From NCBI RefSeq assembly GCF_000025685.1, contig NC_013964.1, forward strand, positions 330,001 through 362,000: a stretch of DNA of 32,000 bases. Reading direction: 5' to 3'. Positions within the stretch are counted from its first letter, which is position 1. Each line of letters starts with the position of its first letter. A program made the translations under genes and the position numbers. Positions 16,327 to 32,000 of this stretch are shown here, piece after piece. The notes under the pieces are model-generated. The model made no database searches. It was not told the DNA's origin and saw nothing but the letters and a program-made list of their open reading frames with translations. The DNA comes from Haloferax volcanii DS2. GTDB lineage: Archaea; Halobacteriota; Halobacteria; Halobacteriales; Haloferacaceae.

Positions 16327-16677
16327 TCAGCTTCCCCGGTAGGTCGTGTAGCTCCCCGGCGACAGCAACAGGGGAACGTGATAGTGCTCGTTGGCGTCGT
16401 CGACGACGAACCGGACCGGAACCGTCTCCAAGAACGACGATTCCGTGGGGCCGTCGCGGTAGTACGGGCCGACTTCGAACAGGAGTTGGTAGGTTCCGGT
16501 CTCCATCGCGTCGCCCGACAAAAGCGGTTCGTCGACCCGTCCGTCGTCGTTGGTCGTGCCGCGGCCGACCGTCTCCGCCTCGCCGGACGAATCCAGTTTT
16601 TGAAGCGTCACGTCGACGCCGGCCGCCGGTCCCTCGCTGCTGGTGTCGAGGACGTGCGTGGTTACTCCTTCGCTCAT
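16327..16677 (-). CDS. uraH: 5-hydroxyisourate hydrolase (transthyretin-like)
   Basis: 116 aa. It begins ...THVLDTS..G.PAAGV and ends with the diagnostic C-terminal tetrapeptide YRGS. An HYHVPLLLSP motif is present. Confidence 0.9.
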   Translation of the reverse strand: MSEGVTTHVLDTSSEGPAAGVDVTLQKLDSSGEAETVGRGTTNDDGRVDEPLLSGDAMETGTYQLLFEVGPYYRDGPTESSFLETVPVRFVVDDANEHYHVPLLLSPGSYTTYRGS

Positions 16678-16678
16678 C

Positions 16679-17665
16679 TTACTGCTCGTCGAGGTCGCCG
16701 CGGTCCATCGAGAACTGCTGGAAGCCGGTCGGCGCGGGCGGCTCCCGCAGGACGCTGGCGTCGCCGTCGAGGTCGTCGCGGACGCTGAGCCAGGTGCGGT
16801 TGTTCGCCTCGAACCGAACGGACGCGAGCTGCGGATAGCGTTCGAGGACGCGCAGGCCGATTTGGTAGATGAGGTCCTGAATCGAGTTCGAGTCGACCTC
16901 GTCGAAGACGACGTGGGCGATGTCGCGGACCTGCTCGGACGGCACGTACCGTTCGGGGTCCTCGCCGAGCGCGTCTTCGGGGTCGTCGTAGCTCCAGAAG
17001 ATATCGAGCGAGATGTAGAGCGTTCGGTCCTCGCGCTCCGGGAGCGTCGTGTACTCGTCTTGGACGTAGCCGGTGAACGAACTCCCCTCGACCTTGACCA
17101 GTTCGAGGCCGGTGACGCCGCTCGTCTGGTCGGTGATGACGGGTGTGCCGTCGTCTCGCGTCAGCGAGATGGAGCCGTAGCCGGACTCGTTGTCGGAGAC
17201 GCGGAAGACGAGGTCGCTCGCCTCGTACCCGTCGCCGTCGTCCTCTGGGACGGGCAGTTCGTCGAATCGAATCTCGTCGGCCGACACCTCGACGGCGCTC
17301 ATCTGCGAGTAGGTGTCCAAGAACCCCGACCCGACGAACTCCAAGAAGCCTTCGAGGGTGGCCCCGTCGTACTCGCCGGCGTGGTGGAGGATGAAGTTCT
17401 TCATCGAGTCCGTCGCCACGACCTTCGTGTTGTCGCCCTCGCTGAACGACGGCAGGAACTCCTCGCCTTCGACCTGCACGCGAACGTCGAGGCCGAACAG
17501 CACGTTGTCCCGCCCGTCGAACGACGACTCCGGAATCGTGCGAACGCCCTCCAGCGGGGTCGCGTACGTCCGGTAGACGGCGACGTTCTCCTTCCCGTAG
17601 TTCATCGTCCGCTGTTCGCCGCTGTCCGGGGCGTCACCGTCCACCGGTGACTGTTGCGCTGTCAT
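16679..17665 (-). CDS. uox: Urate oxidase (cofactor-independent uricase)
   Basis: It has YGKENVAVYRT near the N-terminus and NTKVVATDSMKNFI (uricase signature region), consistent with a tandem T-fold. The stop is 1 nt before the uraH start. The start may instead be the internal ATG (MNYGKENV) at 17605. Confidence 0.85.
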   Translation of the reverse strand: MTAQQSPVDGDAPDSGEQRTMNYGKENVAVYRTYATPLEGVRTIPESSFDGRDNVLFGLDVRVQVEGEEFLPSFSEGDNTKVVATDSMKNFILHHAGEYDGATLEGFLEFVGSGFLDTYSQMSAVEVSADEIRFDELPVPEDDGDGYEASDLVFRVSDNESGYGSISLTRDDGTPVITDQTSGVTGLELVKVEGSSFTGYVQDEYTTLPEREDRTLYISLDIFWSYDDPEDALGEDPERYVPSEQVRDIAHVVFDEVDSNSIQDLIYQIGLRVLERYPQLASVRFEANNRTWLSVRDDLDGDASVLREPPAPTGFQQFSMDRGDLDEQ

Positions 17666-17762
17666 AATTCGTCTATGAAAGGTGCATCGTTAAACAAAAA
17701 TCTTTGCGTTCGCGTGACATACGCGACTCGTTTCGGCTTTGATTCAGACAGACAGTCGGTTC

Positions 17763-18269
17763 CTATTCTGACGAGAACCGCTCCGCCAACCGGAGTTCCG
17801 CAATCGTGTGGACCTCGTCCAGCGCGGTCCGAAACTCCGTCGACTCCGAGTGGTCGACCCGGCGTTCCATCGCCGCGGCAATCGCGTCGGGGTTCTCGTC
17901 TTTCACCGCCATGACGAACGGGAAGCCGAACCGCTCGCGGTACGTCTCGTTCAGTCGTTGGAACGTCTCGTACTGGCTCCGCGAGAGCGAGTCCAGCTCG
18001 GCCGACGCCTGTTCCGCCTCCGAGGCGTCGGTCATCTCGGTCCGCTCTCCGAGGTCGGGGTGCGCCCGGAGCAACTGGAGTTGCTTCTCGCGCGACGCGT
18101 CCTCGACGGCGCGCTTCATGGCCGACCGGAGTTCGTCCACGGACGAAAACGGTCGCGACGACCGCGCCCGCTCGGCGACCCACGGCGAGTGTTCGTATAT
18201 CTCCCCGAACGCGTCCACGAACGAGTCGTCGTCGAGGCGGTTCACCTGCTGGAGCGTGAGTTCGTGCAT
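17763..18269 (-). CDS. uraD: 2-oxo-4-hydroxy-4-carboxy-5-ureidoimidazoline (OHCU) decarboxylase
   Basis: The 168-aa C-terminal part of the long track ORF, starting at MHELTLQQVN. It contains FGEIYEHSPWVAE, LLRAHPDLG and FGFPFVMAV, which are typical of the OHCU decarboxylase family. The N-terminal approximately 395 aa of track ORF 17763..19457 is an Arg/Gly-rich artefact antisense-frame to the amidohydrolase. Confidence 0.85.
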   Translation of the reverse strand: MHELTLQQVNRLDDDSFVDAFGEIYEHSPWVAERARSSRPFSSVDELRSAMKRAVEDASREKQLQLLRAHPDLGERTEMTDASEAEQASAELDSLSRSQYETFQRLNETYRERFGFPFVMAVKDENPDAIAAAMERRVDHSESTEFRTALDEVHTIAELRLAERFSSE

Positions 18270-18352: not shown

Positions 18353-19735
18353 TCACGCGCTCCAATCGGGGCGCTCGCGCTCCACGAACCGGCCGTGGCC
18401 GGGGTCGCCGACGACCTCGCCGTCGGCCGCGACGACCTCGCCGCGGACGAGCGTCTTCGTCACCCGGCCCGTGACTTCCCGGCCCTCGTAAATCGAGTAG
18501 TCCGCCTTCGAGGCGTTCGCGTCGGCGGAAATCGTGTACGTCTCGTCGGGGTCGAACAGGACGATATCGGCGTCGGTTCCGGGTTCGAGCGTGCCCTTGT
18601 TCGGGAGGCCGAACGTCTCGGCCGGGTTCGAACACATCACGCGGACGAGGAACGGGTACGAGAGCCCGCGCTCGTTGACCGCCTCGTCGTGGAACACCGG
18701 GAGGCTGACCTGCACGCCGTTCGCGCCGAACGGGCCCTCCCACCACGGCCGGTCGACCTTGTCGGCGCGCTTCGAGGCGACGTGGTCCGTCGAGACGACG
18801 CTCAGCACGCCGCGGCGGAGGTATTCGAACATCGCCTCCACGTCGTCTTCCTTGCGGATGGGCGGCGCGATTTTCGGCAGGTTCCCCAGTTCCGCGTAGA
18901 CGGAGTCGTCGAGCGTCGTGTAGTGCGTGCAGGTCTCCGCCCTGACCCGCGACCCGTCCTCGCGGTGGCGGGCGAGCGCGTCGGCGGCCGCCCGGCACGT
19001 CGTGTGGATGCCGTAGTATTTCGCCCCGGCCTCGGTCGCGAGCGTGACCGCGTCGGACGCGGCCATCGCCTCGGCGTAGTCGGGGCGAGACTGCGGGTAC
19101 GTCTCGGGGGCGTCCTCGCCAGCGGCCCGGAGTTCGGCGGTGAGCGCCCGGCAGACCGAGTCGTCTTCGCTGTGGACCACGCCGACCGCGTCGTGTTCGG
19201 CGAGGCGGTCGAACACCCGCTTGAGAAAGCCGTTCGAGACGCCGAACTCGTAGGCGGTGTACATCTTGAACGAGGTCACGCCGTCGTCGACGAGCACCGG
19301 AATCTCCTCGAAGACCGCGTCGTCCTCCCTGAGAATCCCGCCGTGTAATCCGAAGTCGACGAGCGACTGTTCCTGTTGGTCGCGTTTGCGTTCGAGGCCC
19401 TCCGAAAGGGTCGCCGGCTCGTCCCACGGACTGTCCGCGCCCTCGTAGGCCTGCCACGCGAAGTCGATGAACGTGGTGACCCCGCCGAGCGCCGCCGCGC
19501 TGGACACGGTTCGGTAGGTGTCGATGGAGACGTGGTCGTCGACGTGGATGTGCGGGTCGACGACGCCGGGCATGACGACCTGTCCAGTCGCGTCGATTCG
19601 GTTCCGTCCAGCGGGGAGGGCGTCCTCGTCGCCGACGCCGACGATGCGACCCTCGTCGACCGCGACCGCGGCGTCGAGCGTCCGCGAGTCGGTGACGACG
19701 GTCCCGCCGGCGAGTATCGTGTCAACAGTCATCAC
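18353..19735 (-). CDS. Cyclic amidohydrolase of the hydantoinase/dihydropyrimidinase type; putative allantoinase by context
   Basis: 460 aa. It has the metal-binding HxH (VVDPHIHV) and a carbamylated-Lys region (VTSFKMYTAY), giving an overall D-hydantoinase/DHPase-like pattern. It is located between the purine permease and uraD. Confidence 0.85.
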   Translation of the reverse strand: MMTVDTILAGGTVVTDSRTLDAAVAVDEGRIVGVGDEDALPAGRNRIDATGQVVMPGVVDPHIHVDDHVSIDTYRTVSSAAALGGVTTFIDFAWQAYEGADSPWDEPATLSEGLERKRDQQEQSLVDFGLHGGILREDDAVFEEIPVLVDDGVTSFKMYTAYEFGVSNGFLKRVFDRLAEHDAVGVVHSEDDSVCRALTAELRAAGEDAPETYPQSRPDYAEAMAASDAVTLATEAGAKYYGIHTTCRAAADALARHREDGSRVRAETCTHYTTLDDSVYAELGNLPKIAPPIRKEDDVEAMFEYLRRGVLSVVSTDHVASKRADKVDRPWWEGPFGANGVQVSLPVFHDEAVNERGLSYPFLVRVMCSNPAETFGLPNKGTLEPGTDADIVLFDPDETYTISADANASKADYSIYEGREVTGRVTKTLVRGEVVAADGEVVGDPGHGRFVERERPDWSA

Positions 19736-19818: not shown

Positions 19819-21243
19819 TCAGTCGTCGACCGGCGCGGAGGGCGACGACTCAGAACTCGACAGTTCGGTCAGGTCTTCCGGGTCGAGGCCGTCGGTGTGC
19901 TCGGTCGGGCCGAGGCCGACGCCGCCGCCGGGGAGCACGACGTTGAGCGCGAGCGCGGTGAAACCGCCGGTGACGAGCGCGGAGCCGAACAACGTCTGCA
20001 CCTCGGCAGGGAAGTTCTGGAGCACCTCGGGGCGGAACGCCACGCCGAGGCCGAACGCCATCGACAGCGCGAGAATCGTCGAGTTCCGGTGGTCGAGCGT
20101 GACGTTCTGCGTGATGATGCGCGCCCCCGAGGAGAAGATCATCGCGAAGAGGATGAGCGCGCCGCCGCCGAGGACGGCGTCGGGCATCACGGAGACGACC
20201 GCGCCGACCTTCGGGACGAAGCCGAGCACGACGAGGACGACCCCGCCGATGCCGACGACGTATCGGCTCGCGACGCCGGTGAAGCTCACGAGGCCGACGT
20301 TCTGCGAGAAAGACGTGTTGGGAAGCGCGTTGAACAGCGCGGCGAACGCGCTCATCACGGCGTCGGCGACGAGGCCGCCGCGGAACTCCTTGCGGGTCGG
20401 GTTCCGGCCGGTCGCCGACACCGTGCCGGAGATGTCGCCGATGGTTTCGAGGCCGGTGATGACGTAGAGGAACGCGACCGTGAGCACGGCACTGGGCGGG
20501 AATTCGAGGCCGAATCTGAGCGGCGTCGGCACGGTTATCCACCCCGCGGTCGCGACGGCGGTGAAGTCGACCATCCCGAGCGCGATGGCGGCGACGTAGC
20601 CGACGACGATGCCGACGAAGACGCTGATGACGCGGAGGAAGCCGTCGAAGAACTGGTTGAGAACGACCGTGACGACCAAGACGAGCCCCGCGAGGCCGAG
20701 GTTCGCAAACGAGCCGTAGCCGGCGGCCGAGGGGCCGGCGGACGCGCCCGCGGCGTAGTTCATCCCCGTCGGGATGAGCGTCAGCCCGATGAGCATCACG
20801 ACGATGCCCGTGACGAGCGGTGGGAAGTACTTCTGGAAGCGGTCGAGCGTGACGCCCATCACCAACTCGACGGGCGCGGCGAGAAGTGACGTGCCGAAAA
20901 CCGCGGCGATGCCGAACTGTTGGCCGATACCGATGAGCGGGCCGAGGAACGCGAAGCTCGTTCCCATGACGATTGGGAGTCGCGCGCCGACGGGACCGAT
21001 TGGGAAGGCCTGCACGAGCGTCGCCGCGCCGGCGACGATGAGCGCCATCTGCACGAGAAACGTCGTCTGGCCCGACACCGAACCGACGGCGCCCGCGAGG
21101 ATGAGCGGCGGCGCGACGTTGCCGAGGAACATCGCGAGGACGTGTTGGATTCCCAGCGGGACCGCCTCGCCCAGCGGCGGTCTGTCTTCGATATCGTACA
21201 GTACGACCGAGTCGCTCTCCGCATCGGCGGATGTGCTAGTCAT
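19819..21243 (-). CDS. NCS2 family nucleobase:cation symporter (xanthine/uric acid permease-like)
   Basis: It is polytopic and contains PLGIQHVLAMFLGNVAPPLIL, the NCS2 signature region. ATG at 21243 is preferred over the GTG at 21258 used by the track. Confidence 0.9.
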   Translation of the reverse strand: MTSTSADAESDSVVLYDIEDRPPLGEAVPLGIQHVLAMFLGNVAPPLILAGAVGSVSGQTTFLVQMALIVAGAATLVQAFPIGPVGARLPIVMGTSFAFLGPLIGIGQQFGIAAVFGTSLLAAPVELVMGVTLDRFQKYFPPLVTGIVVMLIGLTLIPTGMNYAAGASAGPSAAGYGSFANLGLAGLVLVVTVVLNQFFDGFLRVISVFVGIVVGYVAAIALGMVDFTAVATAGWITVPTPLRFGLEFPPSAVLTVAFLYVITGLETIGDISGTVSATGRNPTRKEFRGGLVADAVMSAFAALFNALPNTSFSQNVGLVSFTGVASRYVVGIGGVVLVVLGFVPKVGAVVSVMPDAVLGGGALILFAMIFSSGARIITQNVTLDHRNSTILALSMAFGLGVAFRPEVLQNFPAEVQTLFGSALVTGGFTALALNVVLPGGGVGLGPTEHTDGLDPEDLTELSSSESSPSAPVDD

Positions 21244-21478
21244 CAGCTCACACGACACGAGACTGGCTTTTGAAACTACCCCTTATTCACCTAATATATC
21301 TATGAATGGTGTTTTCCTTCGAGTAAGAATACACGTACAGACAGCGCTCGCTCGTCGAGCGAGACAGTCGTAGAAATCATCGAGGGAACGTATTCAATCG
21401 CGCGGCTCATCGAGGGCGCGCGCTACCGGTGCGACCGCCTGTGGCGTCCCCGCCTACGGACGGGCCGATACCGACGGT

Positions 21479-21600
21479 CGGGAGCGCGTTGAACGTCCGC
21501 TCGTCGACGAGGCCGCGCGTCGTCTCGGTGAGGGGCACGCGAGTACGAGGTAGTCGCTCCGCGCGGCGGCCGAAAGCACGTCGTGAAGGACCGCGATGTC
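21479..21600 (-). pseudogene. Remnant of a D-isomer-specific 2-hydroxyacid dehydrogenase gene (internal fragment, frameshifted, lacking the N-terminal two thirds)
   Basis: The minus strand reads DIAVLHDVLSAAARSDYLVLACP. After a 1-nt slip in a C-run at about 21532 it reads LTETTRGLVDERTFNALP. Together these match the conserved sD.v.l..PlT.eTrgl....f..l. block of the D-2-HADH NAD-binding domain. Weaker traces (VARALDEP, SLDDF) continue to about 21330. The fragment begins immediately after the DUF3830 stop codon. Confidence 0.5.
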
Positions 21601-21602
21601 GG

Positions 21603-22019
21603 TCACTCCGATACCTCTCGGATGACGACGTCTTGGACGCCCTCGCGGAGCGTCAGTTCCTCGATTGCCTTCAGCTCCTCCGCCGTCGCGTCGATGGTCG
21701 CGAAGTGGTTCCCGGCGAGTTCACCGGCGGGGCTCTTGAAGCACGTCGGGCCGCAGGGGACGAGAATCTCCTGTTCGTTCCGGTAGCCGGGGTAGAGAAG
21801 CAGGTCGCCCCGCGACGGGTAGACGGTGTGGTTTTCCCGCGGAATCTCGGGGAGGTCGATTTCGTCGATGTTTATCCACGTCGCGATGCCGCTCCAGCGG
21901 ACGTGCATGAGCTCCGACTCCAACGGGAGGAACTCTCGAACCGCCTCGACGGAGGCGGGCGCGCGGTCTTCGTGCAGTTCTGCGGTGAACGTCCGGTCTC
22001 CGATTTCTAGCTGTAACAT
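21603..22019 (-). CDS. DUF3830 / cyclophilin-like-fold family protein of unknown function (138 aa)
   Basis: MLQLEIGDRTFTAELHEDRAPASVEAVREFLPLESELMHVRWSG...GDLLLYPG...GNHFATIDATAEELKAIEE. This pattern recalls DUF3830 (PF12903) members, recognised from memory. The rest of track ORF 21603..22778 is a high-GC artefact. Confidence 0.65.
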   Translation of the reverse strand: MLQLEIGDRTFTAELHEDRAPASVEAVREFLPLESELMHVRWSGIATWINIDEIDLPEIPRENHTVYPSRGDLLLYPGYRNEQEILVPCGPTCFKSPAGELAGNHFATIDATAEELKAIEELTLREGVQDVVIREVSE

Positions 22020-23365: not shown

Positions 23366-23655
23366 GGTCCCCCGTCACGACGACCGCTGCGCCGTCGATT
23401 CCGCCGCCGGGTGGCACCGTGTCGCGGCGAGGCAGGAACGTCCGCGACCGAACCGCCGCCCGTCCCCGTCGTCCGGAGCCGGCGGTCGGCGGCTGTCGGC
23501 TTCGGTCTGAAAGGTATCATTGCGTACTTACCCCGAGAGTAACACCACTTGTTGATAAACATTTCGTGAGATGGCGATTTGGTGGCCAGAATACTCGATG
23601 TTTTTCAAATTTAGTGAATACATACACAGTTCCAACCGGAGGGCCGGATTAGAAT

Positions 23656-24765: not shown

Positions 24766-24766
24766 G

Positions 24767-27130
24767 ATGCCTCGGTCCGACACCGGCGACCCCGAGACGG
24801 CGGCGAAGTCGACCAGCGAGGCGCGCGGAGACGACGCCCCCGTCGGCGAGAGCGTCGAGAAAGTCGACGGCTGGGGGCTCGTCACCGGCAAGGCACGCTA
24901 CACCGACGACGTGCCGACCGACGACGCCCTCGCCGCGAAGGTGCTTCGGAGCCCGCACGCGCACGCTCGCGTTCGGTCTATCGACACCGAGGCCGCGGAA
25001 ACGATAGCCGGCGTGAAGGCGGTGCTCACCCACGAGGACGTTCCCGAGGACCGCTTCACGCGAACCGGTTTTCCCTACCCGGCCCCGGCCCCGTTCGACG
25101 AGCGCGTCCTGAACGAGACGGTCCGGTTCGTCGGCGAGCCGGTGGCCGCCGTCGCCGCGCGAACCGCCGAGGCCGCCGCGGCCGCGGTCGACGCCATCGA
25201 GGTCGACTACGAGCCGTACGACCACGTCCTCGACGCGCACGAGGCGATGGGGGCGGACGCGCCGACGCTCCACCCTGAGCCGTACGAGAACCCTCAAGAG
25301 AACGCGGCTCCCGAGCGGAACGTCGTCTGCGAGACCCGCCACGAGGAGGGAAACGTCGAACGCGGGTTCGAGGCGGCCGACGAGGTCGTCGAGGGGGAGT
25401 ACGAGACGCAGGCCGTCCACCACCTCCCGATGGAGACGAACACGACCATCGCGTGGGTGGACGACCGAAGGCGGCTCGTCCTGCGGACGACGACGCAGGT
25501 CTCGCACATCTGCCGCGACAAAATCGCCCGCGTGTTCGGCCTGAACCGCACCGACGTTCGAGTCGTCAAGCCCCGCGTCGGCGGCGGCTTCGGCGTCAGA
25601 CAGGACACGCTCCCGAACCAGTTCATCGGCGCGGCACTCGCGCTCGAAACCGGCGAGAAGGTCCGGCTGAAAAACGACCGAAAGGAGGACCTCCACGGGG
25701 CGCAGACGCGCCACGCCCAGACCGTCCGCGTCAAGACCGGCGTCCGGGAGGACGGGACGCTCACGGCGATGCACGTCGACGTGACCTCGAACACGGGCGC
25801 GTACGGCTGTCACGCCTCCGCGGTGCTGATGAACGCCGCCCACGAACCGCTGTCTGTCTACCCCTGCGAGAACCGGCTGTTCACCGGGCGCGCGGTCTAC
25901 ACCAACGTCACGCCCGGCGGGGCGATGCGCGGGTACGGGGCGGTACAGGGGACGTTCGGCATCGAGAGCCACCTCGACGAGGTCGCCGCGGCCATCGGGA
26001 TGGACCCGGTCGAGTTGCGGCGGCGAAACGCGGTCGAGGAGGGCGACGAGAGCTTCGAACCGGAGTACAGCGAGAGCAAGCGAACCCTCGAATCCGTCGG
26101 CGTCAAGGAGTGTCTCGAACGCGCCTGCGAGACGCTCGGCTGGGCGGACGGCCCCGAGGAACCGGCCGACGACCGCTACCAGCGCGGGTACGGGGTCGCG
26201 CTGGCGATGGCGAAATCCGGCGTCCCGAGCAGCGAGTTTTCCCGGTGTAACATCACGCTGGAAGATGACGGGACGCTCACCGTCCGGGTCGGCGTCGGAG
26301 ACACCGGACAGGGCTCTGAGACGGTGATGGGCCAGATTGCGGCGAGCGTGTTCGGACTCGGCATCGAGTCGGTCCACGTGAAGGCCGACGACACCGACGC
26401 GACCCCGTGGGACAACGGGGCGTACGCGAGCAGTACGACCTACATCAGCGGGAACGCGACCGAGAAGGCCGCTCGCGACCTCGCGGCGAAGGTTCGCGAC
26501 CTCGCGGCCGAGTGGCGCGGAGTCGCCCCGGACGACGTGGAACTGGCCGACGGCGAGGTCCGGTTCCCCGACGGAGAGTCGATGGCCCTCGAACGGTTCG
26601 CGTCGGAGGCGTTTCAGGGGATTCACGGGCCGAAGCGGCGACTCACGGGAACCGGGAAGCACCACACTGCGCTCTCGCCCAAGCCGTTCGCGGCGCAGCT
26701 CGCGGCGGTCGAAGTGGACACCGAGACCGGCGAGTTCGAAGTGCGCCGACTCGTGAACGCCGTCGACTGCGGACGGGCGATTAATCCCGCGGGCGCTCGC
26801 GGCCAAGTCATCGGCGGCGCGGTCATGGGACTCGGACAGACGGTCTCCGAGGACCTCCCGCTGGACGACCGGGGCGCGCCGGAGTTCCGCGGGCTCCGCG
26901 ACTACGAGGTGATGCACGCGCCGGAACTCCCCGACATCGACACGGAGTTGGTCGAAACCGACGAGCCGACGGGGCCGTTCGGCGCGAAGAGCGTCGGCGA
27001 GGTCTCGATACTCGGCCCGCCCGCCGCGATTGCGAACGCGATACACGACGCCGTCGGCGTCCGGGCGACCGAACTCCCGATTACGCCCGAGACGGTGTGG
27101 ACCGCGCTCCAGGAGGACCGGGACCGATGA
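24767..27130 (+). CDS. Xanthine dehydrogenase family molybdopterin-binding large subunit
   Basis: 787 aa. It shows the aldehyde oxidase/XDH a/b hammerhead and Moco-binding domain pattern (GGGFG in VGGGFGVRQD, GAMRGYG, GQGSETVMGQIAA, and a C-terminal FGAKSVGE). It starts 1 nt after the small-subunit stop. Confidence 0.95.
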   Translation: MPRSDTGDPETAAKSTSEARGDDAPVGESVEKVDGWGLVTGKARYTDDVPTDDALAAKVLRSPHAHARVRSIDTEAAETIAGVKAVLTHEDVPEDRFTRTGFPYPAPAPFDERVLNETVRFVGEPVAAVAARTAEAAAAAVDAIEVDYEPYDHVLDAHEAMGADAPTLHPEPYENPQENAAPERNVVCETRHEEGNVERGFEAADEVVEGEYETQAVHHLPMETNTTIAWVDDRRRLVLRTTTQVSHICRDKIARVFGLNRTDVRVVKPRVGGGFGVRQDTLPNQFIGAALALETGEKVRLKNDRKEDLHGAQTRHAQTVRVKTGVREDGTLTAMHVDVTSNTGAYGCHASAVLMNAAHEPLSVYPCENRLFTGRAVYTNVTPGGAMRGYGAVQGTFGIESHLDEVAAAIGMDPVELRRRNAVEEGDESFEPEYSESKRTLESVGVKECLERACETLGWADGPEEPADDRYQRGYGVALAMAKSGVPSSEFSRCNITLEDDGTLTVRVGVGDTGQGSETVMGQIAASVFGLGIESVHVKADDTDATPWDNGAYASSTTYISGNATEKAARDLAAKVRDLAAEWRGVAPDDVELADGEVRFPDGESMALERFASEAFQGIHGPKRRLTGTGKHHTALSPKPFAAQLAAVEVDTETGEFEVRRLVNAVDCGRAINPAGARGQVIGGAVMGLGQTVSEDLPLDDRGAPEFRGLRDYEVMHAPELPDIDTELVETDEPTGPFGAKSVGEVSILGPPAAIANAIHDAVGVRATELPITPETVWTALQEDRDR

Positions 27131-27996
27131 CGGCGTTCGAGTCGGTCGAGTACGTCGAACCCGAGACCGTGTCGGAGGCGGTCGAGCGACTCGCAGACGC
27201 CGACGAGGCGCGCGTCATCGCCGGCGGATACAGCCTCGTACCCCTGCTGAAAGACGGCATCGAGACTCCCGACCGGCTGATAGACGTGAGCGGCCTCAAC
27301 GAGCTGCGCGGGATCACGGAGCGGGGCGACGGCGTCGCTATCGGCGCGCTCGTGACCCACGACGAGATTGCAACCGACGCGACCGTCGCGGAGCGCGCGC
27401 GGGCGCTGGCCGACGCGACCGATTCGGTCGGCGACTTTCAGGCGAGAAACCGCGGGACGATCGCGGGCAACCTCGTGTTTGCCGACCCGAAATACGACGC
27501 GCCGGCGGCGTTTCTCGCACTCGGCGGGAGAGTCGTCACTCTCGGGCCGGCCGGCCGGCGGGCGATAGCGGCGGACGACTGGTTCCGCGGCCCCGGAACG
27601 ACCGCGCTCGACGGGAACGAGCTCGTCACCAGAGTCGAGGTGCCGAGCGTCGAACGGAGCGGCTACGTCCGAACCTCGGAGTACTCGGGGTACGCCGTCG
27701 TCGGTGTCGCGGCCGCGTTCGAGACCGACGACGGGGTCGTGCGCTCGGCCCGAGTCGCGGTGAACGGGGCCAAGCCGTATCCGGTTCGGCTCCCGAACGT
27801 CGAACGCGCGCTCGTCGACGAGGCCGTCGGCAGGGTCGTCGACGGCGACGGTGCGACCGAGGCCGCGACCGCCGCACTCGACGACGTCGAGACGGCGTCG
27901 CTACTGGCGAACGACGCGGCGACCGAGGAGTACCGGCGACAGCTCGTCCGGACGTACTGCCGACAGGCAATCGAGCAGGCCGCTTCGGAGCCGTGA
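27127..27996 (+). CDS. Xanthine dehydrogenase family FAD-binding (medium) subunit
   Basis: MTAFESVEYVEPETVSEAVERLADADEARVIAGGYSLVPLLKDG and RNRGTIAGNL are FAD_binding_5/CO-DH flavoprotein motifs. An ATGA start/stop overlap links it to the large subunit at 27127-27130. Confidence 0.9.
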   Translation: MTAFESVEYVEPETVSEAVERLADADEARVIAGGYSLVPLLKDGIETPDRLIDVSGLNELRGITERGDGVAIGALVTHDEIATDATVAERARALADATDSVGDFQARNRGTIAGNLVFADPKYDAPAAFLALGGRVVTLGPAGRRAIAADDWFRGPGTTALDGNELVTRVEVPSVERSGYVRTSEYSGYAVVGVAAAFETDDGVVRSARVAVNGAKPYPVRLPNVERALVDEAVGRVVDGDGATEAATAALDDVETASLLANDAATEEYRRQLVRTYCRQAIEQAASEP

Positions 27997-28111: not shown

Positions 28112-29250
28112 ATGCGAACGACAGACGACCCGTGGAGCGCGACCGCAGACAGCGTTCGGCAGTCGATGCGCGAGCAGCGAGGCTCGGGGTCGGAGGCGGT
28201 CGTCGCGACCGTCGTGAACGTCGAGGAGTCGGGCTACCGCCGACCGGGGGCGCGTATGGTCGTCGTGCCCGACGGCGAGCGACTCGGCGCGGTCACCGCC
28301 GGCTGTATAACCGAGTCGGTGACAGAGACCGCGCGGCGGGTGAGCGCGAGCGGGACGCCGCGACTGGAGACGTTCGACCTCCGGGGAGGCGACGCCGACG
28401 CGTGGGGGCTCGGACTCGGCTGCAACGGCGTCATCGACGTGCTCGTCGAGCCGGTCGACGCGAGTTTCGACCCCGCGTTGAGCGAACTCCGCGAGAAACG
28501 CGCGGCGACGGTGCTCACCGCCGTCGAGACCGACGACCCGGCAATCGGCGTCGGCGACCGGACGGTGATAACGCGGGGACGGGGCGAACGGCTCTCGAAG
28601 GGCCGTCCCGGCCTTCCCGAGGCGGTCGTCGCCAAGGCAGAATCGCGGCTCGACGGGGCGGCGTCAGGCGCGGCGGCGACGCTCGACGTGCGGACGAGCG
28701 ACGGCGACGTGCGGGTGTTCGCAAACGACCTCGCACCGACGCCGGAGCTGCTCGTCTTCGGCGGCCACGGAGACGTCAACCCCGTCGCGTCGCTCGGCGC
28801 GCAGGCCGGCTTCCGCGTCCGCGTCGCGGCCGCGAGAGGGGCGCACGCCGACGAGAGTCGGTTCCCGGCGGCCAGCGAAGTGACCGCGGTACACCCCGCC
28901 GAACTCGCGGCCCTCGTCGACGCGCCCGACCACACCTACGTCGTGCTCATGTCGCACAACTTCGTCGACGACCGACTCGCGCTGGAGTCGATACTCGGGA
29001 CCGAGGTTCCGTACGTCGGCGTGATGGGCCCGCGGGGGCGTTCGACCAGCTCCGCGAGCGATGGACCGAGAGCTTGACGCGACCGACCGCGAGCGAATCG
29101 CGCCCCGTGCGGGCTCGACATCGGCGGCGACGGGCGTCGACCGTCGGGCTGAGCGTCGTCAGCGAACTGCTCGCGGTTCACAACGGCCGCAGCGGGGCAC
29201 GGCTGACCGACCGCGCGGGCCCGATTCACGGGCGGCCCGAGCTCGGATGA
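28112..29250 (+). pseudogene. xdhC: XdhC/CoxI-family Moco insertion/maturation accessory gene; the 3' approximately 210 nt can only be read through several frame changes
   Basis: The 28112 frame gives good XdhC N-terminal and Rossmann domains up to YVGVMGPRG and then stops at 29077. The conserved C-terminal blocks are split across frames:
- FDQLRER in the 28132 frame.
- LDATDRERI in the 29061 frame.
- RAPCGLDIGGDG back in the 28112 frame.
- STVGLSVVSELLAVHNGRSGARL...ELG* in the 28132 frame, ending in an ATGA overlap with mocA at 29247-29250. Confidence 0.65.
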
Positions 29251-29831
29251 CCCGGGTGGGCATCCTGCTCGCCGCGGGGGCGGGAACCCGGTTCGAACCC
29301 GGGAACAAGCTCTGTCAGCCGCTCGACGGCGAGCCAATCGTCCGCCGGGCGGCCCGGCGGCTGATCGAGTCGCCGGTCGATGAAACCGTGGTCGTCCTCG
29401 GACACGACGCCGAACGGGTCCGGCGGGCGTTAGAACCGCTCGAAACTCGGCTGACGGTCGTCCGTAACGAGCGGTACGACGCTGGACAGAGCGCGTCGGT
29501 TCGGCGCGGGGCGGAGGAGGTGCTGTCGCGCGGCGGGTCGGTCGGCGTGTTCGCGCTCGGCGACATGCCCGCCGTCGGGAGCGCGACCTACGACGAACTC
29601 CTCGCGGCGATTGACCGCGACGACCGACACGTCGTCGTCCCGGTGTACGACGGGCAACGCGGAAACCCCGTCGCGTTCGACGCGGCAGCGCTCGACCGGT
29701 TCGGGAGGCTCACGGGAGACGCGGGTGCGCGCGCCCTGTTCGAAGCGATGCCAGTCGCTCGAGTCGCCGTGGACGACCCCGGAATCCACGCGGATATCGA
29801 CACGGTGGCCGACCTCGAAGCGCACCGCTGA
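29247..29831 (+). CDS. mocA: MobA-like NTP transferase (molybdenum cofactor cytidylyltransferase MocA-like)
   Basis: MTRVGILLAAGAGTRFEPGNKL (the LAAGxGxRF nucleotide-binding motif), GDMP and GNPVAF fit the MocA/NTP_transf_3 pattern. The part of track ORF 29061..29831 upstream of the ATG at 29247 belongs to the xdhC region. Confidence 0.8.
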   Translation: MTRVGILLAAGAGTRFEPGNKLCQPLDGEPIVRRAARRLIESPVDETVVVLGHDAERVRRALEPLETRLTVVRNERYDAGQSASVRRGAEEVLSRGGSVGVFALGDMPAVGSATYDELLAAIDRDDRHVVVPVYDGQRGNPVAFDAAALDRFGRLTGDAGARALFEAMPVARVAVDDPGIHADIDTVADLEAHR

Positions 29832-30153
29832 CGCCGGTCGTCGAGGCGTCTCCCGACCGCCGCGAGTTCGGCATCGTGGAGGGCTGACCGGGCACGCGGG
29901 ACCGCCGGAGCGACGCGGGAGCCACACCACCGCCCTCGGGATGCAGTAGACAATTATATTCATTATATCCGTGGGGTGTGAGGGAGGAGATACTAACAAC
30001 ATTACGACGGTACTACTGTAACGAGTCGCGGGCGCGGCTCGGCGTGACCGAACGACGGGCGACACGAGTGAAGGCGGCGTGAGCGGTGAAAAGAGGGGTG
30101 ACGGCGCGAGTCAGGGCACGGCCAGTGCCACGGTCGTGGCGTCGAACGCCGGG

Positions 30154-31146
30154 TCAGTCCATCTCGCGGTTGTACGACTGCAACAGCGCGGAGGGGACCG
30201 CGAGTCGGACGCTCTCGGTCCGGATGACCGCGTACGAGAGGACGGCAATCGTCGTCAGGTAGGGGTACGTAGACATAATCTGCGGGTTCATGAGCGTGTT
30301 GACGAGCGGGTTGAGGACGCCGGCAAGGGGGGCGTTCGGGTCGAGGGCCAGCGAGAGCGACTGCGACCGGAGTTGAAGCGCGTCGAGCAGGCCGAAGAGG
30401 TACGCGCCGACGAGCATCCTGCTGGGCCGCCACTGGGCGAAGACGACGAGTGCGACCGCAATCCAGCCGCGGCCCACGGTCATGCCGGGAACCCACAGTT
30501 GGGAGAACGCCAGCGAGAGGTGCGCGCCGGCGGCCCCGGCGAAGCCGCCGCCGATGATGACCGCGAGATAGCGAAATTTGAACACCGGCACACCCATCGT
30601 GTCGGCCATCTCGGGGTCTTCGCCGACAGCGATGATTTCGAGACCGAGGTTCGACCGATACAGGAAAAACCAGACGACCGGCACCGCGAGGAGCGCGAGG
30701 TAGTCGGTTGCGGTACTGCGGAAGAACGCCTCACCGACGAGTGGAAGGTGGACGAGGTAGCGGCCGACTATCGGGAAAGTCATCTGGGGGAAGCCGGTGA
30801 TGGACTCTTGGACCCACCCGGACCCGAAGAACGTCGTCAGGCCGGTCCCCAACAGCGTCAGCATGACGCCGCTTATGACCTGGTTCGACTTCAGGGAGAT
30901 ACAGAGGAACGCGTGGACGGCCGCGAGCGCCATCCCGCAGGCGATGCCGACACCGAAGCCGAGCCAGTAGTTCCCCGTAACGGCGGTGACGACGAACCCG
31001 CCGAGCGCGCCGACGAGCATCATCCCCTCGACGCCGAGGTTGAGGACGCCCGCGCGCTCGCTGATGAGCTCTCCGAGCCCGGCCAACAACAGCACCGTCG
31101 CGGCCTGCACCGTCGCGTTCAGGAGGCCGGCGGCGAAGCTCACCAC
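30154..31146 (-). CDS. ABC transporter permease, BMP/simple-sugar (nucleoside-type, NupQ/YufQ-like) family
   Basis: 330 aa and polytopic. The N-terminal AATVLLLAGLGELISERAGVLNLGVEGMMLVGA is the hallmark of BPD_transp_2 permeases associated with BMP-family binding proteins. Confidence 0.9.
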   Translation of the reverse strand: MVSFAAGLLNATVQAATVLLLAGLGELISERAGVLNLGVEGMMLVGALGGFVVTAVTGNYWLGFGVGIACGMALAAVHAFLCISLKSNQVISGVMLTLLGTGLTTFFGSGWVQESITGFPQMTFPIVGRYLVHLPLVGEAFFRSTATDYLALLAVPVVWFFLYRSNLGLEIIAVGEDPEMADTMGVPVFKFRYLAVIIGGGFAGAAGAHLSLAFSQLWVPGMTVGRGWIAVALVVFAQWRPSRMLVGAYLFGLLDALQLRSQSLSLALDPNAPLAGVLNPLVNTLMNPQIMSTYPYLTTIAVLSYAVIRTESVRLAVPSALLQSYNREMD

Positions 31147-32000
31147 CGCGCATCACCGCCTGTGGCGTCGGCCGGCGCGTCGTTCCCCCGCCGGTCGAAC
31201 GCGATGCCGACTCGGTAGCGCTTGAAGAACTCCGAGGTGATGAGAAAGAGGATGACGAGCGCCTGAATGATTTCGACCAACGCCGCGGGGACGCCGAAGG
31301 CGACCTCGACGCTCGACCCGCCGACGAACAGGACGGCGAAAAACAGCCCGGCGAGCGTGACCTTGACCGCGCTGTTGCGGCCCAGGAGGGCGATGGGAAT
31401 CGCGGTGAACCCGTAGCCGGGGGCGAAGGCGGCGCGGAACCGCCCCTGCGAGCCGGCGATTTCAGCGATGCCGCCGAGCGCCGCGAACGCGCCGCCGAGG
31501 AGGAAGACGAACAGGTACACCGTGTGCCGGCTCATCCCCGCCTGCCGGGCGGCCTCGTCGTTCGAGCCGACGAACGTGACCTCGAAGCCGAGGCGCGTCT
31601 TGGTCATGACGACGTACGTGGCGACGACCGCTGCGACGGCGACCAACAGGCCGGCGTGAACGTCCGCGAAGAGCGGTATCGACTCGCCGCCGGGCACGAG
31701 TCCGGCGAGCGGCGGGAGGGTCGCGGCGTCCGAAAAGCGAGCCGACTGCGGGAAGTTCCCGGTGCCGCCCTGCATGGGACCGCGGAGCAGGTAGCTCTGG
31801 AGTTCCTGTGCGACGAACGTCAACAGAAGCGAGGTGATAATCTCGTTGACGTCCCACTTCGCGCGGAGCCACGCGGGGATGCCCGCCCAGAACGCGCCGG
31901 CGACGCAGGCGGCGAGAAACATCAGCGGGAGCAACGCCACGGCGGGAAGCGAGACGTTTACGGCGACCCACGTGCCGGCGAGCGCGCCGAGGAGGAGCTG
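31140..32000 (-). CDS. ABC transporter permease, BMP/simple-sugar (NupP/YufP-like) family; the 5' end is outside the window
   Basis: The reading frame stays open to the window edge: ...QLLLGALAGTWVAVNVSLPAVALLPLMFLAAC.... It is polytopic with an FAALGGIAEIAG-type segment. Its stop overlaps the start of the downstream permease by 7 nt. Confidence 0.85.
   Translation of the reverse strand, partial: QLLLGALAGTWVAVNVSLPAVALLPLMFLAACVAGAFWAGIPAWLRAKWDVNEIITSLLLTFVAQELQSYLLRGPMQGGTGNFPQSARFSDAATLPPLAGLVPGGESIPLFADVHAGLLVAVAAVVATYVVMTKTRLGFEVTFVGSNDEAARQAGMSRHTVYLFVFLLGGAFAALGGIAEIAGSQGRFRAAFAPGYGFTAIPIALLGRNSAVKVTLAGLFFAVLFVGGSSVEVAFGVPAALVEIIQALVILFLITSEFFKRYRVGIAFDRRGNDAPADATGGDARW

What the first reader, a model, noticed from the sequence alone, without database searches (positions are those of the whole stretch)
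16327..32000. Compact purine-to-allantoate (and beyond) catabolic supercluster in a haloarchaeal genome
Within about 15 kb the sequence encodes:
- A three-subunit xanthine dehydrogenase with its maturation genes (xdhC, mocA).
- A cofactor-independent uricase, HIU hydrolase and OHCU decarboxylase, which together form the complete stereospecific urate to (S)-allantoin route.
- A cyclic amidohydrolase and an AllC-type amidohydrolase.
- An NCS2 nucleobase permease.
- BMP-type (nucleoside) ABC permeases.

The genes are tightly coupled:
- A 1-nt spacer lies between uox and uraH.
- ATGA overlaps occur at XDH-L/XDH-M and at xdhC/mocA.
- The catabolic genes are arranged as two divergent units around one long control region.

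Aerobic purine degradation as a nitrogen or carbon source is, to my knowledge, little studied experimentally in Halobacteria. This locus is a ready-made candidate regulon. The steps after allantoate (ureidoglycine aminohydrolase, ureidoglycolate hydrolase or lyase) have no recognisable gene here.
Basis: partly seen in the sequence, partly recalled or inferred. Interest (0 to 1): 0.6.

Follow-up and report, generated by a model that had tools for sequence, protein, structure and literature searches.

The report
Haloferax volcanii purine-breakdown gene island
The genes are real and form a 22.9-kb accessory island on plasmid pHV3 of Haloferax volcanii that most likely breaks purines down via urate and allantoin, but this locus was already proposed as a purine-degradation cluster in 2021 and has not been tested experimentally.

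Summary
Observation confirmed. The genome's five contig lengths are exactly those of the Haloferax volcanii DS2 replicons. The window is pHV3 330,001-362,000, and the genes are HVO_B0299-B0310 and their neighbours.

It missed a DUF3830 gene (21603-22019).

The purine-catabolism reading is well supported but already published as a "highly speculative" prediction (Pfeiffer & Dyall-Smith 2021, PMC8305020).

New here:
- **Island boundaries.** Compared with a close Haloferax relative, the cluster is a 22,884-bp insertion (window 15,777 to 6.7 kb beyond the window end). Beyond the window it also holds the ABC ATPase, adenine deaminase, a Bmp binding protein and an IclR regulator.
- **Distribution.** Of 395 Halobacteria genomes, 36 have uricase, and all 36 have DUF3830, 34 on the same contig. 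All 12 loci inspected carry HIUase, uricase, OHCU decarboxylase, a cyclic amidohydrolase, an M20 amidase and DUF3830.
- **Missing lower pathway.** No ureidoglycine aminohydrolase or ureidoglycolate lyase was found in any of the 36.
- **xdhC.** The apparent xdhC decay is four bases missing from this reference sequence. Other H. volcanii assemblies encode an intact 380-aa XdhC.
- **Enzyme types.** The "allantoinase" and "AllC" are hydantoinase- and carbamoylase-like by sequence.

The DUF3830-ureide link was found earlier in this scan on other DNA.

The parts
15777..16326 (.). Left border of the island and a gene-free interval
   Evidence: Synteny with the close relative G317 (94% DNA identity) ends at window 15776. 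No border repeats were found.
16327..16677 (-). 5-hydroxyisourate hydrolase (uraH/pucM, published as HVO_B0299)
   Evidence: PF00576 E 2e-36. TIGR02962 131.7 bits against a cut-off of 87.45. The C-terminus is YRGS.
16679..17665 (-). Cofactor-independent urate oxidase (HVO_B0300)
   Evidence: PF01014 matches in two stretches. TIGR03383 237.4 bits against a cut-off of 168.4. A 1-nt spacer separates it from uraH.
17763..18269 (-). OHCU decarboxylase (uraD, HVO_B0301)
   Evidence: PF09349 E 2e-49. TIGR03164 191.8 bits against a cut-off of 96.25. The start codon was read.
18353..19735 (-). Cyclic amidohydrolase, the candidate allantoinase, of hydantoinase type (HVO_B0302)
   Evidence: NCBIfam D-hydantoinase 318 bits and AllB 298 bits, both below their cut-offs. 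Best solved structures are D-hydantoinases at 231 bits, against 192 for allantoinase. The gene is present in all 12 uricase loci inspected. The genome has no PuuE homologue.
19819..21258 (-). NCS2 xanthine/urate-type permease (HVO_B0303)
   Evidence: PF00860 E 2e-88. pbuX TIGR03173 434.6 bits against a cut-off of 414.
21330..21605 (-). Remnant of a D-2-hydroxyacid dehydrogenase (approximate limits)
   Evidence: Frame translations read ...SDYLVLACP and PLTETTRGLVDERTFNALP. There are weak tblastx matches to chromosomal genes. Not pursued further.
21603..22019 (-). DUF3830 protein with a cyclophilin-like fold; candidate for a missing ureide-pathway step
   Evidence: PF12903 E 3e-39. The structure model has pLDDT 97 and is nearest to 3KOP. 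A DUF3830 gene is present in 36 of 36 uricase-bearing Halobacteria genomes, 34 on the same contig as uricase.
22046..23365 (-). M20 hydantoinase/carbamoylase-family amidase; candidate allantoate and/or ureidoglycolate amidohydrolase (HVO_B0306)
   Evidence: TIGR01879 345 bits against a cut-off of 204. NF006771 370 bits against 399. AllC equivalog 217 bits against 598. Against solved structures: L-carbamoylase 253 bits, ureidoglycolate hydrolase 207, AllC 167.
23366..24246 (.). 881-bp divergent intergenic region
   Evidence: Candidate ORFs have no Pfam match. The region is unique in the genome. It contains an internal 18-bp direct repeat.
24247..24765 (+). Mo-hydroxylase 2Fe-2S subunit (HVO_B0308)
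   Evidence: Fer2_2 and Fer2 domains.
24767..27130 (+). Mo-hydroxylase molybdopterin subunit, the probable xanthine dehydrogenase (HVO_B0309)
   Evidence: Ald_Xan_dh_C, MoCoBD_1 and MoCoBD_2 domains. Best NCBIfam match is XdhA_XDHase at 641 bits, against a cut-off of 780. It is 33% identical to E. coli XdhA over 762 aa.
27127..27996 (+). Mo-hydroxylase FAD subunit (HVO_B0310)
   Evidence: FAD_binding_5 and CO_deh_flav_C domains. ATGA overlap with the large subunit.
28112..29250 (+). xdhC maturation factor; this reference sequence lacks four bases near the 3' end
   Evidence: XdhC_CoxI and XdhC_C domains. The frame rotates 2>1>0>2>1. An intact 380-aa H. volcanii XdhC is recorded on 105 contigs. 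1143 - 1139 = 4 nt.
29247..29831 (+). MocA-like molybdenum cofactor cytidylyltransferase
   Evidence: NTP_transf_3 domain. Best NCBIfam match is TIGR03310 MocA/YgfJ at 124 bits, against a cut-off of 186.
30154..31146 (-). BMP-type ABC permease
   Evidence: PF02653 E 4e-42.
31140..32000 (-). Second BMP-type ABC permease, cut by the window end
   Evidence: PF02653. The island continues beyond the window on pHV3. It holds a two-domain ABC ATPase and an adenine deaminase (TIGR01178 492.6 bits against a cut-off of 472.5). It also holds a Bmp binding protein and an IclR regulator. It ends at pHV3 368,660.

Best explanation
This is a 22.9-kb accessory island on Haloferax volcanii pHV3 (345,777-368,660). 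Its most likely function is aerobic use of purines as a nitrogen, and possibly carbon, source.

**Proposed pathway**
1. Purine bases or nucleosides enter through the NCS2 permease and the BMP-type ABC transporter.
2. Adenine deaminase makes hypoxanthine.
3. A three-subunit molybdenum hydroxylase of the E. coli XdhABC type oxidises hypoxanthine and xanthine to urate. XdhC matures it, and MocA supplies a cytidine-dinucleotide cofactor.
4. Uricase, HIU hydrolase and OHCU decarboxylase give (S)-allantoin.
5. A hydantoinase-type cyclic amidohydrolase opens allantoin to allantoate.
6. The single M20 carbamoylase-type amidase removes ureido groups as CO2 and NH3.
7. DUF3830 takes part in the steps between allantoin and glyoxylate, in a way not yet known.
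8. The IclR protein at the far end of the island probably regulates it.

**Status of each step**
- Shown by curated-model membership: steps 2 and 4, and the xanthine-permease class.
- Inferred from best family match plus conserved synteny: XDH, the allantoinase and the M20 role.
- Inferred from context only: DUF3830, the IclR regulator and the ABC transporter's substrate.
For: **Identity of the locus**
- The contig lengths are those of the DS2 replicons.
- The published annotation covers HVO_B0299-B0310.

**Family assignments**
-.

**Island limits**
- Two flanking genes lie 24.5 kb apart here and 2.3 kb apart in relative G317, at 96-98% protein identity.
- The DNA alignment breaks at window 15776 and resumes at pHV3 368,661.
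- The inserted segment is therefore exactly the stretch from uraH to the IclR gene.

**Conserved context in Halobacteria**
- 36 of 395 genomes have uricase, and all 36 have DUF3830. It lies within 7 kb of uricase in 28 and within 30 kb in 34.
- All 12 uricase loci inspected hold HIUase, uricase, OHCU decarboxylase, the cyclic amidohydrolase, M20 and DUF3830. NCS2 is present in 9 of them, and an IclR gene is frequent.

**Mo-enzyme**
- The best NCBIfam match is XdhA.
- It shares the GGGFG-x-(R/K)-QD and GAMRGYGA motifs with E. coli XdhA.
- All five 77-80% orthologues lie next to uricase.

**Parallel module in bacteria**
- In Alphaproteobacteria, DUF3830 sits directly upstream of a PuuE-type allantoinase in 31 of 80 loci.
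- OHCU decarboxylase, HIUase, XDH or M20 lie within 10 kb in about 20-25 of the 80 loci.
- The same partners therefore surround two unrelated allantoinases. This supports an allantoinase role for the haloarchaeal amidohydrolase, which has no PuuE alternative in the genome.

**Integrity and expression**
- xdhC is intact in independent H. volcanii assemblies.
- An RNA-seq study listed the HVO_B0303 region as IPTG-responsive, so at least part of the locus is transcribed.
Against: - Pfeiffer & Dyall-Smith cite Stuer-Lauridsen & Nygaard 1998: no xanthine oxidase activity was detected in Hfx. volcanii and xanthine was not metabolised. I could not read the original paper.
- The cyclic amidohydrolase, the M20 amidase, XdhA, XdhC and MocA all score below their NCBIfam equivalog cut-offs.
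- The nearest solved relatives point to other functions. They are D-hydantoinase, L-N-carbamoylase and 4-hydroxybenzoyl-CoA reductase.
- From my memory of the bovine enzyme, the residue aligned with catalytic-pocket Glu802 is Gln. E. coli XdhA, itself only partly characterised, also has Gln there.
- No known enzyme for ureidoglycine or ureidoglycolate is encoded anywhere in the genome, so the end of the pathway is conjecture.
- No shared operator motif was found across the island's intergenic regions.
Confidence: 0.8

Rival explanations
1. Only the urate-to-allantoin trio is purine-related. The cyclic amidohydrolase, M20 amidase and DUF3830 would then form a general hydantoin / N-carbamoyl-amino-acid or dihydropyrimidine utilisation module that merely lies nearby. 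KEGG annotates it this way.
For: - Sequence places both enzymes nearer to D-hydantoinase/dihydropyrimidinase and L-carbamoylase than to AllB/AllC.
- The trio also occurs without uricase in some Halobacteria (L023, L024, L027).
- DUF3830 occurs in unrelated contexts in other Haloferax, next to asparaginase, a short-chain dehydrogenase and an ABC transporter.
Against: - The trio accompanies uricase in all 12 loci inspected, and DUF3830 is present in 36 of 36 uricase genomes.
- No other allantoinase exists in the genome: there is no PuuE homologue, and the best AllB-like hit is a paralogue on pHV4.
- In bacteria the equivalent position holds a PuuE-type (polysaccharide-deacetylase family) gene, taken here to be an allantoinase.
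- Allantoin is itself a 5-substituted hydantoin, and allantoate an N-carbamoyl amino acid.
- Trios without uricase fit use of external allantoin.
Confidence: 0.1
2. The Mo-enzyme is not a xanthine dehydrogenase. It would instead be another hydroxylase of the family, acting on aldehydes, CO or an N-heterocycle or aromatic compound.
For: - The best solved relative is 4-hydroxybenzoyl-CoA reductase at 365 bits. CO dehydrogenases score 236-280 bits and bovine and Rhodobacter XDH only 153-185.
- The small and FAD subunits score best against glyceraldehyde dehydrogenase models.
- The XdhA equivalog cut-off is not reached.
- A 40-46% identical tier of paralogues is common in Halobacteria that lack uricase.
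- No xanthine oxidase activity has been reported in this species.
Against: - The large subunit's top family is XdhA: 641 bits, against 551 for 4-HBCR and 370 or less for CODH.
- The sequence GAMRGYGAVQ stands where CO dehydrogenases carry their active-site loop (from my memory of the CODH motif).
- All five close orthologues are linked to uricase.
- Adenine deaminase and a pbuX-class permease lie in the same inserted island.
- XdhC and MocA accompany it, as MocA does for E. coli XdhABC (established knowledge).
Confidence: 0.12
3. The island is a decaying, non-functional acquisition in H. volcanii.
For: - xdhC is frameshifted in this sequence.
- A dehydrogenase remnant sits inside the operon.
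- The guanine-deaminase-like amidohydrolase seen in 8 related loci is missing here.
- The cluster is absent from 20 other Haloferax species genomes.
- Xanthine was reported as not metabolised.
Against: - An intact XdhC is recorded from H. volcanii on 105 contigs. One accession carries the UniProt code for strain DS2.
- Four same-direction 1-nt losses within about 100 nt of an otherwise clean gene look like base-calling errors.
- All other island ORFs are full length and match family profiles end to end.
Confidence: 0.08

Closest known systems
Published annotation of this very locus: HVO_B0299-HVO_B0310, 'proposed purine degradation pathway' (Pfeiffer & Dyall-Smith 2021, Genes 12:963, section 3.9g and Supplement S9.g)
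   Same: - Same genome and same genes: pucM, pucL1, pucL2, pucH1, uraA4, amaB4, coxSLM.
- Same conclusion that the region probably encodes purine catabolism.
- Same caveat that hydantoinase and carbamoylase homologues are equidistant.
   Different: - The paper assigns the M20 enzyme to ureidoglycolate hydrolase and leaves allantoate-to-ureidoglycolate as a gap.
- HVO_B0305 and HVO_B0311 do not occur in its supplement. The passages read do not discuss DUF3830, xdhC, mocA, the ABC transporter, adenine deaminase, the IclR gene, the island boundaries or the distribution across Halobacteria.
Bacillus subtilis puc regulon and the E. coli xdhABC plus all regulon (canonical bacterial purine/ureide catabolism)
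   Same: - XDH of the E. coli XdhABC type, at 33% identity.
- The uricase / HIU hydrolase / OHCU decarboxylase route.
- An amidohydrolase-superfamily allantoinase and an M20 amidase.
- An NCS2 permease and a dedicated regulator.
   Different: - No AllE-type ureidoglycine aminohydrolase, AllA lyase, AllD or allantoicase.
- The allantoinase and M20 enzymes are hydantoinase- and carbamoylase-like.
- A DUF3830 gene is present.
- Uricase and OHCU decarboxylase are separate genes, whereas B. subtilis fuses them in PucL.
- The regulator is IclR-type rather than PucR or AllR/AllS. AllR is itself an IclR-family protein; the island's IclR gives 69 bits against a cut-off of 406 on the AllR model.
Alphaproteobacterial DUF3830-puuE purine clusters (Bradyrhizobium and relatives)
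   Same: DUF3830 is linked to an allantoinase, an M20 amidase, OHCU decarboxylase, HIUase, XDH and BMP-type ABC permeases.
   Different: - The allantoinase is the unrelated PuuE (polysaccharide deacetylase) type.
- Eight of the 25 bacterial genomes checked also have the canonical ureidoglycine aminohydrolase, and 10 have AllA.

Membership tests
Cofactor-independent urate oxidase (TIGR03383 / PF01014) | Full-length match above the curated equivalog cut-off, with two tandem T-fold uricase domains | tested here: met
   237.4 bits against a cut-off of 168.4. Pfam matches in two stretches.
5-hydroxyisourate hydrolase (TIGR02962) | Equivalog cut-off reached, and the C-terminal YRGS tetrapeptide that separates HIUases from transthyretins (from established knowledge) | tested here: met
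   131.7 bits against a cut-off of 87.45. The protein ends ...TTYRGS.
OHCU decarboxylase (TIGR03164 / PF09349) | Match above the curated cut-off | tested here: met
   191.8 bits against a cut-off of 96.25. PF09349 E 2e-49.
Allantoinase AllB (TIGR03178) | Match above the equivalog cut-off and a better score than for sister cyclic amidohydrolases | tested here: not met
   298 bits against a cut-off of 358. D-hydantoinase scores higher at 318 bits, also below its cut-off. Solved D-hydantoinases score 231 bits and allantoinase 192. The allantoinase role is inferred from context only.
Allantoate amidohydrolase AllC (TIGR03176; NF006771 subfamily) | Match above the curated cut-off | tested here: not met
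   TIGR03176 217 bits against a cut-off of 598. NF006771 370.5 bits against 399. Only the broad hydantoinase/carbamoylase family TIGR01879 is passed (345 bits against 204). Solved ureidoglycolate hydrolase (207 bits) scores above AllC (167 bits).
Xanthine dehydrogenase, E. coli XdhABC type (NF043082-84) | Three subunits with Mo, FAD and 2Fe-2S domain sets | tested here: met
   All Pfam domains are present and the genes are tightly coupled.
Xanthine dehydrogenase, E. coli XdhABC type (NF043082-84) | Large subunit above the equivalog cut-off | tested here: not met
   641 bits against a cut-off of 780, although this is the best-scoring family.
Xanthine dehydrogenase, E. coli XdhABC type (NF043082-84) | Substrate-pocket residues of characterised XDHs (bovine Glu802/Arg880/Glu1261, recalled from memory) | tested here: inconclusive
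   GGGFGVRQ has Gln where bovine XDH has Glu802. E. coli XdhA has the same Gln. The catalytic Glu in ...KSVGE... is present. I had no solved XdhA-type structure or alignment to bovine XDH to place Arg880.
Xanthine dehydrogenase, E. coli XdhABC type (NF043082-84) | Xanthine or hypoxanthine oxidising activity | not testable with these tools
   Reported as not detected in Hfx. volcanii, cited second-hand.
Xanthine permease PbuX subfamily of NCS2 (TIGR03173) | Match above the curated subfamily cut-off | tested here: met
   434.6 bits against a cut-off of 414.15.
Adenine deaminase (TIGR01178) | Match above the equivalog cut-off | tested here: met
   492.6 bits against a cut-off of 472.5, for the gene at pHV3 364,080-365,807, just beyond the window.
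Canonical ureide lower pathway (UGlyAH cupin TIGR03214; ureidoglycolate lyase PF04115; allantoicase PF03561) | Presence of at least one of these genes in the genome | tested here: not met
   - In the H. volcanii genome the best cupin hit is 20 bits against a cut-off of 200, and there is no lyase and no allantoicase.
- In the 35 other uricase-bearing Halobacteria genomes, no cupin reaches the cut-off and no lyase is found.
- The allantoicase model does detect a true gene in a Rhizobium genome.
DUF3830 (PF12903) | Match above the Pfam gathering score and a cyclophilin-like fold as in PDB 3KOP | tested here: met
   134.7 bits against a cut-off of 26. The model has pLDDT 97, and Foldseek places 3KOP top with TM 0.85.

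The most novel reading that the evidence does not exclude
Haloarchaea, and many Alphaproteobacteria, may run a ureide pathway with no known enzyme for ureidoglycine or ureidoglycolate. Under this reading DUF3830 is a missing catalyst. It is a roughly 138-aa cyclophilin-fold protein with near-invariant H-x-RWSG, EN-x-T-x-YP and LAGNHF motifs, and it lies in one operon with the allantoinase and the M20 amidase.

- **Most likely role:** a non-cupin (S)-ureidoglycine aminohydrolase.
- **Alternatives:** an allantoin racemase, or a ureidoglycolate-cleaving enzyme.
- **Point against a simple one-for-one replacement:** DUF3830 co-occurs with canonical UGlyAH and AllA in 8-10 of 25 bacterial genomes.
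- **Why this locus matters for the test:** H. volcanii is genetically tractable and has a single DUF3830 gene inside a clean island, so it would be a good organism for the experiment.

The probability below refers to a catalytic role between allantoin and glyoxylate.
Probability: 0.45. Interest if true: 0.7.

Novelty: already known. Interest (0 to 1): 0.4.

Why it matters
**Why purine catabolism in archaea matters**
- It has not been shown experimentally.
- This island sits in the main haloarchaeal genetic model organism.
- It has sharp boundaries, a candidate IclR regulator and an intact gene set.
- Growth, induction and deletion experiments are therefore straightforward.

**What those experiments could settle**
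- Whether E. coli-type XdhABC homologues are true xanthine dehydrogenases.
- Whether hydantoinase- and carbamoylase-like enzymes serve as allantoinase and allantoate amidohydrolase.
- What DUF3830 does in the many genomes that lack every known route from allantoate to glyoxylate.

**Practical point**
- The reference sequence of the 3' end of xdhC should not be read as a pseudogene.

Tried and rejected
**Led nowhere**
- I looked for a hidden gene in the 881-bp divergent spacer. There is no Pfam match, no homologue in related loci and no copy elsewhere in the genome.
- I looked for an operator shared by the island's nine intergenic regions, using exact 9-mers and 12-mers. Only the internal 18-bp direct repeat of the long spacer turned up.
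- I looked for att-like repeats at the island borders and found none.
- I looked for published work on DUF3830/PF12903 or on a cyclophilin-like ureide enzyme and found none in the library.

**Considered and rejected**
- The xdhC pseudogene idea was rejected.
- I tested whether DUF3830 strictly replaces the cupin UGlyAH. That is rejected as a strict rule, because the two co-exist in 8 of 25 bacterial genomes.

**Tool problems**
As a result I could not fetch DNA of the intact xdhC allele or precomputed neighbourhoods.
- The first all-against-all ORF clustering of the bacterial loci timed out. A reduced version was partly confounded by antisense ORFs.
- The 39-sequence DUF3830 alignment was too diverse for the search for related loci, so I used a 12-sequence subset.
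- Stuer-Lauridsen & Nygaard 1998 is not held.

Full report
**Identity of the sequence**

The genome that holds the window has contigs of 2,847,757, 85,092, 6,359, 437,906 and 635,786 bp. These are the sizes of the Haloferax volcanii DS2 chromosome, pHV1, pHV2, pHV3 and pHV4 as I know them. The control row also names H. volcanii. The window is pHV3 330,001-362,000. The left 15 kb carries unrelated genes: an HTH_10 regulator, TFB, inositol monophosphatase, a GDPD and a sugar-type ABC transporter.

**Observation**

These genes pass curated NCBIfam cut-offs:
- Uricase: 237 bits against a cut-off of 168.
- HIU hydrolase: 132 bits against 87, with a YRGS C-terminus.
- OHCU decarboxylase: 192 bits against 96.
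- The pbuX-class NCS2 permease: 435 bits against 414.

- TAA-g-ATG between uox and uraH.
- ATGA at XDH-L/XDH-M.
- ATGA at xdhC/mocA.
- The 881-bp divergent spacer.

Two corrections are needed:
- A 138-aa DUF3830 gene lies 26 nt downstream of the M20 gene (21603-22019). This finding did not list it.
- The minus-strand array has gaps of 344, 83, 83 and 97 nt, so it need not be a single transcript.

**The locus is already in the literature**

Pfeiffer & Dyall-Smith (2021, PMC8305020) list HVO_B0299 (pucM), B0300 (pucL1), B0301 (pucL2), B0302 (pucH1), B0303 (uraA4), B0306 (amaB4) and B0308-B0310 (coxSLM). They treat these as a possible complete purine degradation pathway and call it "highly speculative".

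Points they make:
- B0302 and B0306 are about as close to D-hydantoinase and L-carbamoylase as to allantoinase and ureide amidohydrolases.
- KEGG files both genes under pyrimidine degradation.
- According to Stuer-Lauridsen & Nygaard 1998, xanthine oxidase activity was not detected in Hfx. volcanii and xanthine was not metabolised.

I could not obtain the 1998 paper. No other paper in the library combines haloarchaea with urate or allantoin catabolism.

**Extent of the cluster**

Beyond the window end lie, in order:
1. The rest of the second BMP permease.
2. A two-domain ABC ATPase.
3. Divergently, an adenine deaminase (TIGR01178 492.6 bits against a cut-off of 472.5).
4. A Bmp-family binding protein.
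5. An IclR regulator.

This IclR is the best match in the genome (70% identity) to the IclR gene next to the closest related cluster in another haloarchaeon.

In a close Haloferax relative (G317), the flanking ABC ATPase and GFO/IDH/MocA genes are 98% and 96% identical to those here. They lie 2.3 kb apart there, against 24.5 kb here. DNA synteny stops at window 15776 and resumes at pHV3 368,661.

The purine genes are therefore a 22,884-bp insertion running exactly from uraH to the IclR gene. Its GC content (66.3%) is like the rest of pHV3, and it has no border repeats. Among 21 Haloferax species genomes, only this one has uricase.

Counts in 395 Halobacteria species genomes:

| Feature | Genomes |
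|---|---|
| Uricase | 36 |
| DUF3830 | 69 |
| Uricase genomes that also have DUF3830 | 36 of 36 |
| DUF3830 and uricase on the same contig, within 30 kb | 34 |
| DUF3830 and uricase within 7 kb | 28 |

Twelve uricase loci were mapped with tblastn.
- All twelve contain HIUase, uricase, OHCU decarboxylase, the cyclic amidohydrolase, the M20 amidase and DUF3830.
- The NCS2 permease is in nine.
- An IclR gene and a guanine-deaminase-like amidohydrolase of about 470 aa recur. The latter is absent from the H. volcanii island.

Loci with DUF3830 but no uricase often keep the amidohydrolase-M20-DUF3830 trio (L023, L024, L027). This fits use of external allantoin. Others have a different context.

**Is the Mo-enzyme an XDH?**

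Evidence for:
- The large subunit scores best on the XdhA models (641 and 617 bits). This is ahead of 4-hydroxybenzoyl-CoA reductase (551), glyceraldehyde dehydrogenase (414), PucD (394) and CO dehydrogenases (370 or less).
- It is 33% identical to E. coli XdhA over 762 residues. It shares GGGFG-x-(R/K)-QD and GAMRGYGA with XdhA.
- The five other Halobacteria with 77-80% orthologues all have uricase 6-11 kb away.
- A more distant tier (40-46% identity) lies 5-22 kb from uricase in about 17 further genomes.
- Adenine deaminase, the pbuX-type permease, XdhC and MocA lie in the same inserted block.

Evidence against or neutral:
- It does not reach the equivalog cut-off.
- No XdhA-type structure is solved. 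The nearest structure is 4-HBCR at 365 bits, and bovine and Rhodobacter XDH give only 185 and 153 bits.
- The 40-46% tier is also common in genomes without uricase.

I rate XDH as probable, not shown.

**Are the amidohydrolases ureide enzymes?**

By sequence alone they fail the AllB and AllC membership tests.

| Enzyme | Model or structure | Score (bits) | Source |
|---|---|---|---|
| Cyclic amidohydrolase | D-hydantoinase model | 318 | |
| Cyclic amidohydrolase | AllB model | 298 | |
| Cyclic amidohydrolase | Solved D-hydantoinases | 231 | |
| Cyclic amidohydrolase | Solved allantoinase | 192 | |
| M20 amidase | Solved L-carbamoylase | 253 | |
| M20 amidase | Solved ureidoglycolate hydrolase | 207 | |
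| M20 amidase | Solved AllC | 167 | |

The case for a ureide role is contextual.
- The pair accompanies uricase in all loci inspected.
- The genome has no PuuE homologue.
- In Alphaproteobacteria, DUF3830 sits directly upstream of a PuuE-type allantoinase in 31 of 80 loci. That gene is often followed by an M20 amidase or by OHCU decarboxylase and HIUase, with XDH and BMP permeases nearby.

Two unrelated allantoinase types thus share the same partners. This pattern looks like non-orthologous displacement within one pathway.

**The lower pathway**

In H. volcanii:
- No ureidoglycolate lyase and no allantoicase.
- The best ureidoglycine-aminohydrolase cupin hit is 20 bits against a cut-off of 200.
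- Urease is present.

In the 35 other uricase-bearing Halobacteria genomes:
- No cupin above the cut-off and no lyase.

In 25 DUF3830-bearing bacterial genomes:
- 14 have none of the three enzymes.
- 8 have the cupin.
- 10 have the lyase.

DUF3830 is therefore not a strict substitute.

About DUF3830 itself:
- It is a small family: 649 clusters at 50% identity among 1.84 billion representatives.
- It is 70-88% identical across haloarchaeal genera.
- It has near-invariant H-x-RWSG, EN-x-T-x-YP and LAGNHF motifs.
- It models confidently as a cyclophilin-like barrel (pLDDT 97).
- Its nearest structures are 3KOP (function unknown) and then the Pictet-Spenglerases McbB and KslB, enzymes of amine-carbonyl chemistry.
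- No paper in the library mentions the family.
- Earlier reports of this scan reached the same DUF3830-ureide association on other genomes. That link is therefore not new to the scan.

**xdhC**

In this sequence the homology to XdhC orthologues rotates through frames 2>1>0>2>1 within about 100 nt. It includes an in-frame TGA at 29075.

The protein collection holds a 380-aa H. volcanii XdhC that is 100% identical to the undisturbed part. It is seen on 105 contigs, and one accession carries the UniProt species code for strain DS2. The 321-aa truncated form is recorded only from the 437,906-bp contig.

An intact gene would be 1143 nt, and the window has 1139 nt. Four missing bases in the reference sequence is the simplest reading. 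The maturation factor should be treated as intact.

**Verdict**

The finding is real and correctly interpreted, and it is already published as a prediction for this very locus.

- The boundaries and full content of the island.
- The conserved six-gene haloarchaeal core.
- The absence of known lower-pathway enzymes across all uricase-bearing Halobacteria sampled.
- The resolution of the xdhC artefact.
- An independent confirmation that DUF3830 belongs with allantoin catabolism.

Function remains untested.

Noticed in passing
window 29030-29250: The 3' end of xdhC needs four 1-nt frame corrections in this reference sequence. An intact 380-aa H. volcanii XdhC is recorded on 105 other contigs, so this is most likely a reference sequencing error and not a pseudogene.
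   Followed up: yes
window 21330-21605 (minus strand): A short remnant of a D-isomer 2-hydroxyacid dehydrogenase lies between the DUF3830 and NCS2 genes. Its peptides read ...SDYLVLACP and PLTETTRGLVDERTFNALP in two frames. It may be the relic of a glyoxylate or hydroxypyruvate reductase gene.
   Followed up: partly
window 23656-23673 and 24029-24046: A perfect 18-bp direct repeat occurs twice, 373 bp apart, inside the 881-bp divergent spacer. The spacer has no detectable gene and no copy elsewhere in the genome.
   Followed up: partly
G000:C1:1993652-1996319 (chromosome): A chromosomal paralogue of the M20 amidase lies directly beside an IclR gene. That IclR is the second-best genome match to the cluster-type IclR. 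This may be a second, separate carbamoyl-compound module.
   Followed up: no
L020 7702-9918 and L021 (other Haloferax species): In two Haloferax species without uricase, DUF3830 follows an asparaginase and a short-chain dehydrogenase. It lies near ABC ATPases and a distant (36-37% identical) M20 amidase. DUF3830 is therefore not confined to urate clusters.
   Followed up: partly
window 19819-21258 (HVO_B0303): An RNA-seq screen for sugar-responsive promoters lists the HVO_B0303 region among three regions that respond to IPTG (PMC10448506). The response is unexplained, but it shows the permease gene can be induced.
   Followed up: no
L008, L009, L011, L012, L014, L016, L017, L018: Eight related haloarchaeal purine loci carry a roughly 470-aa amidohydrolase of the guanine / 8-oxoguanine / deoxyadenosine deaminase group. 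The H. volcanii island lacks it and has adenine deaminase instead.
   Followed up: partly
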